This document shows, piece by piece, positions 1,265 through 8,269 of a stretch of 32,221 nt of DNA. Below the pieces are notes generated by a model that was given only the letters and a program-made list of their open reading frames with translations, did not search any database and was not told where the DNA came from. A program made the translations under genes and the position numbers. The DNA comes from Abditibacteriaceae bacterium. GTDB taxonomy: Bacteria; Armatimonadota; Abditibacteriia; Abditibacteriales; Abditibacteriaceae. The stretch lies in the NCBI GenBank assembly GCA_031372065.1, contig JANMKN010000182.1, forward strand, positions 1 to 32,221, in the 5' to 3' direction. Position 1 is the first letter of the stretch, and every line of letters begins with the position of its first letter.

Positions 1265-2050
1265 TCAGCGTTTCGGAGGATTTGTGAGCAGTTGGATAAA
1301 TTGAGAAGTGGCTTCATTTTGCTCTGCCTTTTGAGCAATCTGCAATGCCGTTTTGCCGGACTTGTTCTTTAAATTGATTCGTGCTCCACGCAAAAGAAGC
1401 AAGCGCGTTAATGCAATTCCGTCATTATCTGGCTCTTGGGCTATACGCATCAGCGGCGTATAGCCTTCTTTGTCGCGAATATTGATCATTGCGCCCTGTT
1501 TTATCAATTCTTGTCCCGTCTCAAAATTGGAAGCGCAGCCGCAACTGCCACAAGAGTAAACCGCGTGCAATAAAGCTGTTGCGCCGTTTGAATCTTTCAT
1601 TTCCAATTTTGCGCCATGTTTCAAAAGAAGTTGAATTGTAGCACCATTAAGAAAAGCCGCTGCATACATCAGAGGAGTGGCTTGATTCGATAGTCGTCGA
1701 ATATTTACATCTGCTCCTCTCTTGAGTAAGGGCGCCACCATAGAATTACCGTTCCGCAAGGCGATAAAAATCACTGGTAGGCCATTTTCATCGCGCGCAT
1801 TGGGATTGGCTCCCTTATCCAACAAAGTTTGAGCTTCCTTGCTCCGACCGTTTTCAAACGCGCGATCCAATTTTAGACTCAATTGATGCCGTTGTGCAGA
1901 ATGCAAAGTAACTGAACCTTGCCCTAGAACTCTGGCTCCGACACGGCACCAAACAAAAGAAGTAATGCCGAACAGAAAAACAGCAATTGCGACAATTTTG
2001 CGAGAAGACCACATAAACTCAATTATGGCGTTTCTGGCAAATTTTCGCAT
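1265..2050 (-). CDS. Ankyrin-repeat protein with N-terminal signal/membrane anchor (alternative start at 2014)
   Basis: Ankyrin motifs LLDKGANPNARDENG, LLKRGADVNI, TPLMYAA, LLLKHGAKLEMKDSNGATALLHA, GYTPLM, GKTALQIA; hydrophobic N-terminus IVAIAVFLFGITSFVW. Confidence 0.92.
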   Translation of the reverse strand: MRKFARNAIIEFMWSSRKIVAIAVFLFGITSFVWCRVGARVLGQGSVTLHSAQRHQLSLKLDRAFENGRSKEAQTLLDKGANPNARDENGLPVIFIALRNGNSMVAPLLKRGADVNIRRLSNQATPLMYAAAFLNGATIQLLLKHGAKLEMKDSNGATALLHAVYSCGSCGCASNFETGQELIKQGAMINIRDKEGYTPLMRIAQEPDNDGIALTRLLLLRGARINLKNKSGKTALQIAQKAEQNEATSQFIQLLTNPPKR

Positions 2051-2088: not shown

Positions 2089-2439
2089 ATGTCCGCCAAA
2101 GCAATTTTTCAGTCGCATTGGGCATCCTTTCTGTTTTTGCTGCCTTTTGTTGTCTTGTTTGCCTTGCATAACGCGTTGGGGCTGTCGAATGCGGTTATGG
2201 TGTTGGCTGACGATTATCCCGGACGCGACAAAGTGTTCGGCATGGACGTGCAACTCTACAATTTGATAATGTGTTTAGCTTTTATAGGCGGCCTATTCGC
2301 TTTTTGGATGCACGCTGCCTATCTTTTTGGTGGCAGTAAAGATAAGAATCGCATTTGGGTTTTTGCCGCCAAAACTGTGTTTGCAGGTTTATTTTGGGCA
2401 GCAATTTTATTGCTTATGCAATACACAGACAGCAGATAA
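2089..2439 (+). CDS. Hypothetical small membrane protein (about 3 TM segments)
   Basis: 116-aa ORF with three hydrophobic stretches, divergent from the ankyrin gene; stop lies just before repeat copy 2. Confidence 0.7.
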   Translation: MSAKAIFQSHWASFLFLLPFVVLFALHNALGLSNAVMVLADDYPGRDKVFGMDVQLYNLIMCLAFIGGLFAFWMHAAYLFGGSKDKNRIWVFAAKTVFAGLFWAAILLLMQYTDSR

Positions 2440-2440
2440 A

Positions 2441-2462
2441 ATTTGAGCCGCTCTATTTTGTG
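2441..2462 (+). repeat. Direct repeat copy 2 of the hslU 3' end
   Basis: ATTTGAGCCGCTCTATTTTGTG; one mismatch to 1240..1261. Confidence 0.9.
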
Positions 2463-2478
2463 CGGGACTAAAACAGCG

Positions 2479-2560
2479 GGGCTACGCTACGCTCCACCCT
2501 CTTCCAAACGGGGGCTGTTTGAAATTCATGTTTGGAAGAGGGTGGAGCGTAGCGTAGCCC
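2479..2560. repeat. REP/REPIN-like perfect inverted repeat upstream of RAYT
   Basis: 31-bp arm GGGCTACGCTACGCTCCACCCTCTTCCAAAC (2479..2509), 20-nt loop, exact reverse complement at 2530..2560. Confidence 0.9.
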
Positions 2561-2580
2561 TGCCCTAAAACTAAGAAGCC

Positions 2581-3120
2581 ATGAGTCAGCGTTTTAATCG
2601 GCCTGATGCTGCCGGAGTGCTGCATTATGTCACTTTAAATGTGCGCGAACGGCGACCGATTTTCTCACACGGCGCTTATGCACTGGCCTTGCTGCAAACC
2701 ATGCGGACTATTTGCGATAATTATCCGGCCAAATTGGTGGCTTATGTTGTCATGCCCAATCATTTGCATTTCGTTATGCATCCTCAAGACGGCAAATTAG
2801 GCCATTTTTTATCACGTTTTAAACCAGCCGCGACAAAAAGTATGGATGCTCTGGCTCTTGAGAAAAATCATCTCAAGATGCAAGCTTGGCTACGCACAGA
2901 ATACGGCAGAAATCTGTGGCAAGACGGAAAACACAGTTTGCACTTGTGGAGCGACAAATTAATCTGGCAGAAAATTCACTATATTCATAATAATCCGGTG
3001 CGTGCTGGCCTCGTTTCTCACTCTGCGGATTATCGTTGGTCAAGTTTTGGTGCCTTTGAAGTGCAATCCGCCCATCAAATTCCTGTTGCAGTGGACAGTG
3101 ATTGGTGGTGGGAGAATTAA
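2581..3120 (+). CDS. REP-associated tyrosine transposase (RAYT; Y1 HUH family)
   Basis: HYVTLNVRERRPIF, HUH motif YVVMPNHLH, LWQ, catalytic Tyr motif YIHNNPVRAGLV, YRWSS; flanked by palindromes. Confidence 0.93.
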   Translation: MSQRFNRPDAAGVLHYVTLNVRERRPIFSHGAYALALLQTMRTICDNYPAKLVAYVVMPNHLHFVMHPQDGKLGHFLSRFKPAATKSMDALALEKNHLKMQAWLRTEYGRNLWQDGKHSLHLWSDKLIWQKIHYIHNNPVRAGLVSHSADYRWSSFGAFEVQSAHQIPVAVDSDWWWEN

Positions 3121-3139
3121 GCGAGGCTATCTGTTAATG

Positions 3140-3233
3140 GCGGGGCTGTCGCCCTCTTCCAAACGGGCAAATGCAAATTAAAATAAGTCGCCCCGTTTGG
3201 AAGAGAAACCGCCCAAAGGGCACCCGGCCCCGC
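3140..3233. repeat. REP-like inverted repeat downstream of RAYT
   Basis: CTCTTCCAAACGGG (3154..3167) pairs with CCCGTTTGGAAGAG (3192..3205); outer GCGGGGC (3140..3146) pairs with GCCCCGC (3227..3233). CCCTCTTCCAAACGGG is shared with the upstream hairpin region (2497..2512). Confidence 0.85.
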
Positions 3234-3234
3234 T

Positions 3235-3717
3235 TTCCAGCCAACTTCTGCCTGTTTCCAGCCTCTGTAAGCGCTTTTCCCGCTTGCCTGAGTGCTATTC
3301 CAACCTACAAGAGCGCCTTTCCAGCCTCCAAGAGACATCTTTCAGCCAACTTCCACCTTCTTCCAACTTGCTCAAGTGTGTTTCCAACCTCCAAGAGCGA
3401 CTTTCCAGCCTCTATGGGCCTGTTTCCAGCTATCTTATGCGTGCTTCCAGCCGACGTTCGTGATGTTCCAGTGATAATTCGTGACCTTCCAGTGACCTTT
3501 TGTGATGTTCCAATGAACATTAGCGTGCTTCCAGCAAACATTAGGGTGCTTCCAACGAACACGAGCGTTGTTCCAACGAACATGAGGGTGCTTCCAACGA
3601 ACACGAGACAGCTTCCAACCGATGTGAGACACCTTCCAACGAACATCAGACACGTTTCAACAAGCTCAAGGCACGTTCCAACGAACACGAGACAGCTTCC
3701 AACGCTGCAACTTGGAA
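3235..3717. repeat. Strictly phased array of 23 degenerate 21-bp units, consensus TTCCARY-N8-G-N5
   Basis: Units start at 3235, 3256, 3277 and so on to 3697, exactly 21 bp apart. TTCCA in 20/23 (TTCCC once, TTTCA twice); G at unit position 16 in 21/23; units 18 and 22 identical. Confidence 0.95.
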
Positions 3718-3795
3718 ATCACAAGGCAAATGCGACTGTGTGGCTTGCCTTATAAGTTTCTTGTTGGGATGAGGGCGAAAGTGCGCGCTTTTTGC

Positions 3796-3824
3796 TTGTG
3801 CAATGTTTCACAGGTCGGTAGAAT
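3796..3824 (+). promoter_or_regulatory. Putative sigma70-type promoter for the nuoC cluster
   Basis: TTGTGC (3796..3801), 17-bp spacer, TAGAAT (3819..3824), 24 nt before the nuoC ATG. Confidence 0.45.
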
Positions 3825-3848: not shown

Positions 3849-4445
3849 ATGGCGAAGCACATCAGCGATTCGGTGACGGGGCCAAACCCGACAATGGAAG
3901 CCGTGCCGATTGAAAGCAGCGGCGCGGCAAAATATGAAATTCCGGCCAAAGCCGAGGAAACTGTGACGCGTTTGGCGGCGCAATTCGGCGATATTGCGTG
4001 GGAAATCGTGCGCTTTCGCAATGAAGTGACACTTTATGTGCCGCGTGAGCGCATTGTTGAGGTTTGCCAATTTTGCAAAAGCGAACTGGGCTTTAATTAT
4101 CTCAGCGATTTAACAGGCAACGATTGGCCGGAGCGCGAGACGCGATTTGAAGTGATTTATCATTTGTATTCGATGGAGCATTTCACAAGGTTTCGCCTCA
4201 AAGTGCGCGTGCCGGAAGAGCCTTGCATTTGTCCGAGCGTGACGAGCGTTTGGGCCACGGCCAACTGGCACGAGCGCGAAACATTCGATCTGTTCGGCAT
4301 CGTTTTCGAGGGTCATCCCGATTTGCGGCGCATTTTGCTGACCGAAGAATGGCAAGGCCATCCGTTGCGGCAAGATTATCCCATCGGCTGGGAAGAACCG
4401 GAGTTTACCGTTCGCAAAATCAATCGCGATTACGCGACAGGATAG
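3849..4445 (+). CDS. nuoC: NADH-quinone oxidoreductase subunit C
   Basis: FNYLSDLTGND, RFEVIYHLYS, WATANWHERETFDLFGIVFEGHPDLRRILL, GHPLRQDYP. Confidence 0.96.
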   Translation: MAKHISDSVTGPNPTMEAVPIESSGAAKYEIPAKAEETVTRLAAQFGDIAWEIVRFRNEVTLYVPRERIVEVCQFCKSELGFNYLSDLTGNDWPERETRFEVIYHLYSMEHFTRFRLKVRVPEEPCICPSVTSVWATANWHERETFDLFGIVFEGHPDLRRILLTEEWQGHPLRQDYPIGWEEPEFTVRKINRDYATG

Positions 4446-4518
4446 CAGTGAGCGGTGTTCAGTGATCAGAACTTTTTTGCACTGAACACTGCTCACTGAA
4501 CACTGAACACTGAACACT
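4446..4518. repeat. Intergenic heptamer (CACTGAA) repeat hairpin
   Basis: CAGTGAGCGGTGTTCAGTG (4446..4464) pairs with 4480..4498 at 18/19; tandem CACTGAA copies at 4494, 4501, 4508. Confidence 0.85.
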
Positions 4519-5865: not shown

Positions 5866-5946
5866 ATTTAGGTCTTTGGACTTTGGTTTTAGGTCTTTGA
5901 TTCCGCCGCGCGCGTTTCCCAAAACCAAAACCCAAAACCCAAAACC
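5866..5946. repeat. Intergenic heptamer-type repeat with imperfect hairpin potential
   Basis: TTAGGTCTTTG at 5868 and 5889, followed by CCAAAAC-type tandem copies at about 5919..5946. Confidence 0.75.
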
Positions 5947-8175: not shown

Positions 8176-8256
8176 GTTTTAGGTCTTTGGCTTTTGAGCT
8201 TAGGTCTTTGGAAGAATCGCACAAAAACCAAAGCCAAAATCCAAAGACCTAAAACC
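8175..8256. repeat. Intergenic heptamer-type hairpin
   Basis: GGTTTTAGGTCTTTGG (8175..8190) is the exact reverse complement of CCAAAGACCTAAAACC (8241..8256); TTAGGTCTTTG at 8179 and 8200, as in the nuoD-nuoE spacer. Confidence 0.85.
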
Positions 8257-8269
8257 ACCCGAAGGGTTT

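What the first reader, a model, noticed from the sequence alone, without database searches (positions are those of the whole stretch)
2479..3717. RAYT HUH nuclease with REP-like hairpins abutting a 23 x 21-bp fixed-core, variable-interior array
Seen: an intact RAYT lies between two hairpins sharing CCCTCTTCCAAAC. One base after the outer stem of the right hairpin (3233), 23 units of exactly 21 bp begin, with no indels. Each starts TT(C/T)C(A/C)RY, resembling the TTCCAA core of the REP arms; 21/23 have G at position 16, and the rest varies widely. The last unit folds on itself (TTCCAA-N9-TTGGAA). Known: RAYTs are Y1 HUH enzymes that bind and nick ssDNA REP hairpins, and their cellular role is unresolved; 21 bp is two helical turns. 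Inference: the array could be a RAYT-built or RAYT-read cassette (iterated joining at a TTCCA site, a short-spacer small-RNA array, or a phased protein-binding platform). I know of no described RAYT locus with this layout, but adjacency could be coincidental.
Basis: partly seen in the sequence, partly recalled or inferred. Interest (0 to 1): 0.85.

Follow-up and report, generated by a model that had tools for sequence, protein, structure and literature searches.

The report
RAYT inserted beside pre-existing 21-bp array
The row of 23 repeats of 21 bases is real but is one of about 260 such rows between genes in this bacterium, and a related genome has a short version at the same spot without the DNA-nicking enzyme (RAYT) gene, so the enzyme cassette likely landed beside an older, probably protein-binding repeat row rather than building it, although its hairpins do sit next to such rows far more often than chance.

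Summary
In detail: an intact RAYT lies between two hairpins (REPINs), followed by 23 x 21-bp units. The idea that RAYT built the array is not supported.

- The genome holds 258 such arrays outside genes, in about 100 sequence families; 250 have no REP arm nearby.
- A congener has a 6-unit orthologue before nuoC with no RAYT or REP.
- One contig from a related sample joins the upstream gene straight to the array, lacking the 782-bp cassette between two CCGCT repeats.
- None of 24 close RAYT homologue loci has a detected 21-bp array.

The array fits the published, unexplained class of 20-21-nt constant-size, variable-sequence repeats (PMC8161180). This scan also noted the class before, on other DNA. 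Across the arrays, conservation shows a 10.5-nt rather than a 3-nt rhythm, which points to a helically phased DNA platform.

One link survives: this REPIN family shares spacers with arrays in 8 of 16 cases against 1.1 expected, whatever the array's sequence. The best reading is that RAYT/REPINs insert preferentially beside existing arrays.

The parts
2089..2439 (+). Upstream small membrane-type ORF (flank; not part of the cassette)
   Evidence: its orthologue lies upstream of nuoC in G002 with two other small ORFs, no RAYT and no array, in between
2448..2452 (+). Left CCGCT direct repeat, inferred left boundary of the RAYT cassette
   Evidence: the empty-site contig rejoins here (tables 5 and 5c)
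2476..2563 (.). Left REPIN: 34-nt inverted arms, 20-nt loop
   Evidence: same arm variant flanks the 70%-identical RAYT in L043
2581..3120 (+). RAYT / TnpA-REP, 179 aa, HUH at H61-H63, catalytic Y134, single close copy in the genome
3140..3233 (.). Right REPIN, composite: a second hairpin-repeat class lies inside its right arm at about 3209-3228
   Evidence: a longer version of the insert is seen in run X4 (table 4)
3230..3234 (+). Right CCGCT direct repeat = REPIN end, ending in C-T; inferred right boundary of the cassette
   Evidence: T follows the REP end in 80 of 139 arms in relatives
3235..3717 (.). Non-coding array of 23 x 21-bp degenerate units, core TTCCARY plus G16, grown by local duplication (units 18 and 22 identical; 4 and 8 match at 19 of 21)
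   Evidence: 6-unit orthologue in G001
3718..3765 (.). Tail that travels with the array: conserved in G001, absent in G002
3794..3824 (+). Conserved promoter-like block of nuoC (TTGTGC-17-TAGAAT, read by eye; below the scanner's threshold)
   Evidence: conserved before nuoC in family relatives; not listed
3849..4445 (+). nuoC (complex I 30-kDa subunit), downstream housekeeping gene
   Evidence: PF00329, E 7e-48

Best explanation
An intact RAYT gene with its two REPINs sits directly beside a 21-bp repeat array that likely predates it and probably works as a helically phased binding platform on double-stranded DNA, the cassette having likely inserted at the CCGCT site on the array's edge. Shown: the array is one of 258 such arrays outside genes, it exists at this site without RAYT in a congener, and REPINs of this family are over-represented beside arrays of unrelated sequence. 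Inferred: the array grew by local unit duplication while keeping the 21-bp register; RAYT nicked and rejoined single-stranded DNA at C|T, as its relatives do in vitro; and array-bearing spacers are preferred or tolerated landing sites. My odds: independent origin of array and RAYT about 0.9; insertion rather than deletion about 0.75; protein platform as the array's function about 0.5.
For: Genome-wide class: 275 period-21 segments against 0-40 at the other periods from 10 to 45, apart from 42; 258 lie outside strong genes; 200 profiled arrays fall into 101 families. Orthologue: G001 has 6 units plus the tail before nuoC, with no REP or RAYT in the 1 kb upstream. Empty site: one X4 contig joins 2429 to 3230 with 18 letters that align in length to 2430-2447 (10 of 18 alike, compared by hand), so it lacks exactly the segment between two CCGCT repeats. 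RAYTs cleave at CT (PMC8266576, passages). Homologues: 0 of 24 close RAYT loci have a 21-bp array, and 0 of 86 assessable REP loci in five relatives lie within 200 bp of one. Phasing: in 249 arrays, column conservation has power at 10.5 nt (z 15.4) and none at 3 nt (z -2.4), whereas coding repeats give z 5-11 at 3 nt. Autocorrelation dips at lag 5 and recovers at lag 10, and AA/TT makes up 30% of conserved steps against 12% of variable ones. Neighbourhood bias: 8 of 16 against 1.06 expected; 5 of 13 two-armed REPINs against a null of 0.053, p 4e-4.
Against: The empty site rests on one contig at depth 3.4 with a 26-base short side, laid at 85% likeness, a setting for which the tool warns of foreign joints. 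It does not by itself give the direction of the event. My detector missed the short G001 array (score 14), so 'no array' elsewhere means no long array, and 6 of the 24 RAYT loci had under 500 bp downstream. The relatives' stretches held only 5 arrays in 1.31 Mb, so they cannot test enrichment. At three other REPIN-plus-array sites the relatives have neither element, so the order of events is unknown there. 125 of 176 arrays keep a stop-free frame against 99 expected. The column-shuffle null breaks conserved blocks and inflates the 10.5-nt z. No binding protein is identified, and this array lacks the dyad symmetry seen in about half of the others.
Confidence: 0.68

Rival explanations
1. RAYT and its REPINs actively target or carry 21-bp arrays, moving array-plus-REPIN modules around the genome and so helping the arrays spread in this lineage.
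For: REPIN-array co-location is about 8-fold and largely specific to this family; 17 other repeat seeds gave p of 0.028 or more. Two REPIN-adjacent arrays (C378, C225) are of one family, 62-69% alike. At C378 the flanking genes abut in G001, so array and REP were both gained in this lineage. REPINs also follow two array-led genes (C277, C368).
Against: 250 of 258 arrays have no REP arm within 120 bp. REPIN-rich relatives are array-poor. This array predates its REPIN. Neighbouring arrays share no core.
Confidence: 0.15
2. RAYT built this array by repeated joining at a TTCCA site, or reads it as a cassette.
For: The array starts one base after the REPIN stem and shares TTCCA with the arm.
Against: The orthologous array exists without RAYT or REP. 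The interiors are duplicates of each other, and they match elsewhere in the genome once against 1.4 expected. 0 of 8 other REP-adjacent arrays have the core, and 9 of 200 arrays have it with or without a REP. A 3-unit relative in G003 has no REP or RAYT nearby.
Confidence: 0.03
3. The array is transcribed and acts as RNA, either as 21-nt phased small RNAs or as a protein sponge.
For: Bacterial satellites are reported to be transcribed in Bacillus coagulans (PMC8625621, abstract and passages). The array lies downstream of RAYT on the same strand.
Against: It folds no better than shuffles (z -0.04). It has no Rfam match. Conservation follows the 10.5-nt pitch of B-DNA.
Confidence: 0.08
4. The array encodes a heptad-repeat peptide (ORF 3171-3755, 194 aa).
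For: One + frame is stop-free across all units. The unit shortened in G001 loses 3 bases, which keeps frame. Stop-free frames are in excess genome-wide (125 against 99 of 176).
Against: A stop-free frame has P 0.13 by chance here. Its ATG lies in the REPIN loop, which the empty site lacks. There is no Pfam or NCBIfam hit. The class shows no codon-position rhythm.
Confidence: 0.05

Closest known systems
Constant-size (20-21 nt), variable-sequence bacterial tandem repeats (Subirana and Messeguer, PMC8161180; abstract, introduction, part of methods, sections 3.3 and 4.2 read)
   Same: Fixed 21-nt period, many sequence families in one genome, mostly non-coding, lineage-specific abundance, function unknown; the authors note the two-helical-turn length.
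   Different: This genome has 258 arrays (4.2 per 100 kb), against 22-30 in the 20-21-nt column for the three 21-nt-rich Bacillus species and B. selenatarsenatis in that paper's table (different detector). A 10.5-nt conservation rhythm is measured here. The word 'transposase' does not occur in that paper's main text, so no REP/RAYT link is discussed there. Its supplements were not read.
REPtron / REPIN-RAYT systems (E. coli TnpA-REP, PDB 4ER8; P. fluorescens REPINs, PMC3116915; PMC8266576; 10.1101/279083; passages read)
   Same: Single-copy Y1 HUH enzyme with the Y---NP signature, flanked by inverted hairpin doublets that are also dispersed between genes, with ends at C-T.
   Different: The tag before the hairpin is mostly GAGG (111 of 139; GTGG 28) rather than GTAG. 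A RAYT-gene presence/absence allele bounded by 5-bp repeats is seen. REPINs cluster beside non-hairpin 21-bp arrays, which I did not find in print (searches).
21-bp arrays upstream of small helical+FN3 genes
   Same: This genome has the pairing: 7 of 9 members of a 230-aa family have an array on their 5' side, and a model shows helices plus an FN3-like sandwich.
   Different: The window's array has no such gene next to it. It faces the nuoC promoter and forms a single-member sequence family.

Membership tests
RAYT / REPtron | Y1 HUH enzyme with HUH motif and catalytic Tyr (Y---NP) | tested here: met
   H61-L-H63, Y134-I-H-N-N-P; NF047646 above cut-off; 4ER8 hit, E 2e-4
RAYT / REPtron | Gene flanked by cognate REP/REPIN hairpins | tested here: met
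   the same arms flank homologues L003-L006 and L043
RAYT / REPtron | Cognate REPINs dispersed in the genome, enzyme in low copy | tested here: met
   15 two-armed loci among 31 hits; one close RAYT
RAYT / REPtron | 5' GT[AG]G tetranucleotide at the hairpin foot | tested here: inconclusive
   GAGG in 111 and GTGG in 28 of 139 arms in relatives; GAGG in this window
RAYT / REPtron | REP-dependent ssDNA cleavage at C|T | not testable with these tools
   only indirect: cassette bounded by CCGCT repeats; T follows the REP end in 80 of 139 arms
20-21-nt constant-size variable-sequence repeats | Fixed repeat length, no indels | tested here: met
20-21-nt constant-size variable-sequence repeats | Many sequence families within one genome, lineage-specific | tested here: met
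   101 families among 200 arrays; 4.66 per 100 kb here against 0-2.2 in stretches of five relatives
20-21-nt constant-size variable-sequence repeats | Not protein-coding | tested here: met
   no 3-nt rhythm (z -2.4) against z 5-11 in coding repeats; the excess of stop-free frames is a caveat
20-21-nt constant-size variable-sequence repeats | One short motif shared by most arrays of the species | tested here: inconclusive
   only AA/TT enrichment at conserved steps; TTCCA in 9 of 200
CRISPR-like acquired-spacer array | Constant repeats separated by unrelated, acquired spacers | tested here: not met
   interiors are related by duplication, similarity falls with distance, and two units are identical; matches to phages were not searched
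BIME / tandem REPIN cluster | Repeat units are themselves hairpin REPs | tested here: not met
   the array folds like shuffles and has no dyad symmetry
Helical+FN3-gene-linked 21-bp array (scan notes) | Cognate small helical+FN3 gene directly downstream | tested here: not met
   neighbours are the RAYT 3' end and nuoC; the pairing exists elsewhere in the genome

The most novel reading that the evidence does not exclude
This RAYT recognises the edges of helically phased 21-bp arrays as landing sites regardless of their sequence, and moves its own gene and its REPINs there, possibly carrying arrays along. That would give RAYTs a structure-defined target rule and tie two unexplained repeat classes into one system that has filled about 1% of this genome.
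Probability: 0.25. Interest if true: 0.72.

Novelty: new member of a known kind. Interest (0 to 1): 0.42.

Why it matters
It removes a tempting false lead, a RAYT-written memory cassette, and leaves two testable handles. First, how REPINs and RAYT genes choose insertion sites is open; here there is a candidate filled/empty pair with a defined C|T junction and an eightfold bias toward array-bearing spacers. Second, the 20-21-nt repeat class has no known function; a genome with 258 arrays lets its constraints be measured, and they follow the pitch of the DNA helix rather than the genetic code or RNA folding.

Tried and rejected
- REP-derived core: rejected.
- Interiors acquired from the host genome: 1 match against 1.4 expected.
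- Structured RNA: z -0.04; Rfam gave only two sub-threshold microRNA-family hits on the left hairpin.
- Hidden decayed REP arms beside most arrays: 8 of 258 at score 12 or more, 16 of 258 at the loosest cut.
- Arrays beside distant RAYT hits: L017's period-42 signal is a REP-type tandem, and L042 has a true 21-bp array but matches only 17 residues of the query.
- The tail 3697-3770 has no clear second copy in the genome.
- Three-unit TTCCARY pattern: 12 of 301 phylum genomes; the four-unit pattern hit 4 viral contigs. None of the 17 loci inspected had a REP or RAYT, and many were coding.
- Orthologue look-ups for four other REPIN-plus-array sites found no usable orthologue.
- No RNA holder listed.
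- Pfam named none of 12 array-linked proteins above cut-off; the Atlas gave unnamed clusters only.
- No paper on repeats in this lineage turned up in the listing.

Full report
1. Observation. The window carries, in order, a small membrane-type ORF (2089-2439), a hairpin (2476-2563), a 179-aa ORF (2581-3120), a second hairpin (3140-3233), the array (3235-3717) and nuoC (3849-4445) at the head of a complex I gene run. The ORF is a RAYT: NF047646 scores 102.6 bits against a cut-off of 80, the HUH and Y---NP motifs are intact, and its only solved relative is E. coli TnpA-REP. Similarity between units falls with distance, units 18 and 22 are identical and units 4 and 8 match at 19 of 21, which is the pattern of local duplication. 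The closest named record for the RAYT is an Abditibacteriaceae MAG, so the host is likely of that lineage.

2. The array is one of many. A periodicity scan of the 6.14-Mb assembly gave 275 segments at period 21 and 251 at period 42, against 0-40 at every other period from 10 to 45. Merging 21 and 42 and removing 3-, 6-, 7- and 14-periodic DNA left 285 arrays, 258 of them outside strong genes by my own hexamer gene caller, covering about 64 kb. The window's array is the longest. The 200 arrays that could be profiled fall into 101 families, and this one is a singleton. Stretches of five relatives are poorer: 0-2.2 per 100 kb against 4.66 in a sample of this genome at the same threshold. Those stretches were chosen around REPINs and cover 1.31 Mb in all.

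3. The arrays look like non-coding DNA phased to the helix. Across 249 arrays, conservation per column has no 3-nt rhythm (z -2.4), while coding repeats give z 5-11. It has a strong 10.5-nt rhythm (z 15.4), higher than at 21 or 7. That null breaks conserved blocks, so I also took the autocorrelation: it dips to -0.17 at lag 5 and returns to -0.02 at lag 10 (s.e. about 0.016). AA/TT makes up 30% of conserved steps against 12% of variable ones, and about half of the arrays are dyad-symmetric, though this one is not. Against this reading, 125 of 176 arrays keep a stop-free frame where column shuffles give 99; shuffling creates new codons, so I treat this as inconclusive. For the window array a stop-free frame has P 0.13. 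As RNA it folds like shuffles.

4. The array does not need RAYT. In congener G001 the DNA before nuoC holds six homologous units, five of which match window units at 15-17 of 21. It has a similar self-pairing last unit and the same tail and promoter block (71% over 219 nt), with no REP or RAYT in the kilobase upstream. G001's RAYT lies on another contig, in two pieces. G002 has the upstream gene but neither RAYT nor array there, and no array was detected at eight further nuoC loci. The detector scored the G001 array only 14, so short arrays can be missed.

5. An empty site. Laying 4 of the 5 listed runs (the probable source run was left out), one contig of run X4 joins 2429 to 3230 through 18 letters that correspond in length to 2430-2447. 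The window has CCGCT at both 2448-2452 and 3230-3234, so the contig lacks exactly the 782 bp between these repeats: both REPINs and the RAYT gene. RAYTs cleave at CT (PMC8266576, passages), and T follows this REP's end in 80 of 139 arms in relatives. The limits are one contig, depth 3.4, a 26-base short side and 85% likeness. X4 also holds a filled allele with a longer insert in the right arm, and X2 and X3 match the window across the junction.

6. RAYT homologues. The same REPIN flanks homologues at 47-70% identity and occurs in 15 of 31 genomes searched, all within the family or order. Of 24 distinct close loci (34-76% identity; loci returned twice counted once), none has a period-21 array; 18 had 500 bp or more downstream. 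Among the remaining, more distant loci, one weak 17-residue hit has a true array nearby and one has a REP-type tandem. In the relatives, 0 of 86 assessable REP loci (of 99) lie within 200 bp of an array, but only 5 arrays were present.

7. What survives of the link. In this genome, outside the window, 8 of 16 REP-bearing intergenic regions also hold an array, against 1.06 expected for length-matched regions (p about 1e-5). Of 23 REP loci at E up to 1, 18 fell in a defined spacer and 2 were the window's own. Seventeen other repeat seeds gave p of 0.028 or more, three of them near 0.03-0.04 uncorrected. Two-armed REPINs alone give 5 of 13 against a null of 0.053 (p 4e-4). From the arrays' side the link is rare: 8 of 258. 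At three such sites with orthologues in relatives neither element is present, so the order of events is open there.

8. Mechanism. Most likely a short array stood before the nuoC promoter and grew by unit duplication in this lineage, with selection keeping two conserved patches per 21 bp on one face of the helix, as a DNA-binding or DNA-bending platform would require (inferred; no protein identified). The RAYT cassette then entered at the C|T site on its edge (inferred and known RAYT chemistry). REPINs favour array edges either because these are safe places or because RAYT finds exposed single strands there; the data cannot tell these apart.

9. Comparison. The array matches the class of 20-21-nt constant-size, variable-sequence repeats of Subirana and Messeguer (PMC8161180; abstract, introduction, part of methods and sections 3.3 and 4.2 read; supplements not read). 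That class is described as widespread, mostly non-coding and of unknown role. Earlier notes of this scan report such arrays before small helical+FN3 genes. I confirmed that pairing elsewhere in this genome (7 of 9 members of one family; model pLDDT 86.5 with FN3-type fold matches) but not at this locus. The cassette is an ordinary REPtron except for its GAGG tag (passages of PMC3116915, PMC3733652, 10.1101/279083 and 10.1101/2022.05.22.493013). I found no paper linking REPINs to 21-nt arrays in searches, which cover open-licence papers and preprints only.

10. Verdict. The feature is real, the headline interpretation is not supported, and both parts are members of known kinds. What is new is modest but testable: a filled/empty RAYT site, a REPIN bias toward array edges, and a measured helical rhythm in a large set of arrays. 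Interest 0.42.

Noticed in passing
G000:C161:18306-18775; C173:4381-4798; C125:979-1389; C14:1618-2027: These 21-bp arrays flip orientation midway and form long inverted arms; 74 of 258 arrays have substantial reverse-complement self-matches.
   Followed up: partly
window 3209-3228: A second hairpin-repeat class sits inside the right REPIN arm; it occurs in dozens of spacers, and run X4 has a longer version here.
   Followed up: partly
window 4480-4518, 5918-5946, 8222-8257: 7-nt tandem repeats lie between the nuo genes, some as inverted arms.
   Followed up: no
L201-L212 (G000 contigs C184, C201, C277, C106, C129, C234, C382, C102, C395, C166, C368): At least six small paralogue families (126-324 aa) without a Pfam name mostly have a 21-bp array on a fixed side; one models as helices plus FN3.
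   Followed up: partly
window 2440-3790 against L062-L071: The slot before the nuoC promoter is a variable hotspot, with differing upstream genes across relatives; one looks like an aminoglycoside-phosphotransferase-type ORF (L065, judged by eye from the translation).
   Followed up: no
L006 (G001:C207): The RAYT homologue of G001 is in two pieces, apparently frameshifted, yet still flanked by REPINs.
   Followed up: no
window 1265-2050 (-): Ankyrin-repeat gene inserted between an HslU-like ATPase gene (named from recall of the translation) and the membrane ORF.
   Followed up: no
window 2462-2469: A truncated REP-like start lies just left of the left REPIN, inside the inferred cassette.
   Followed up: no
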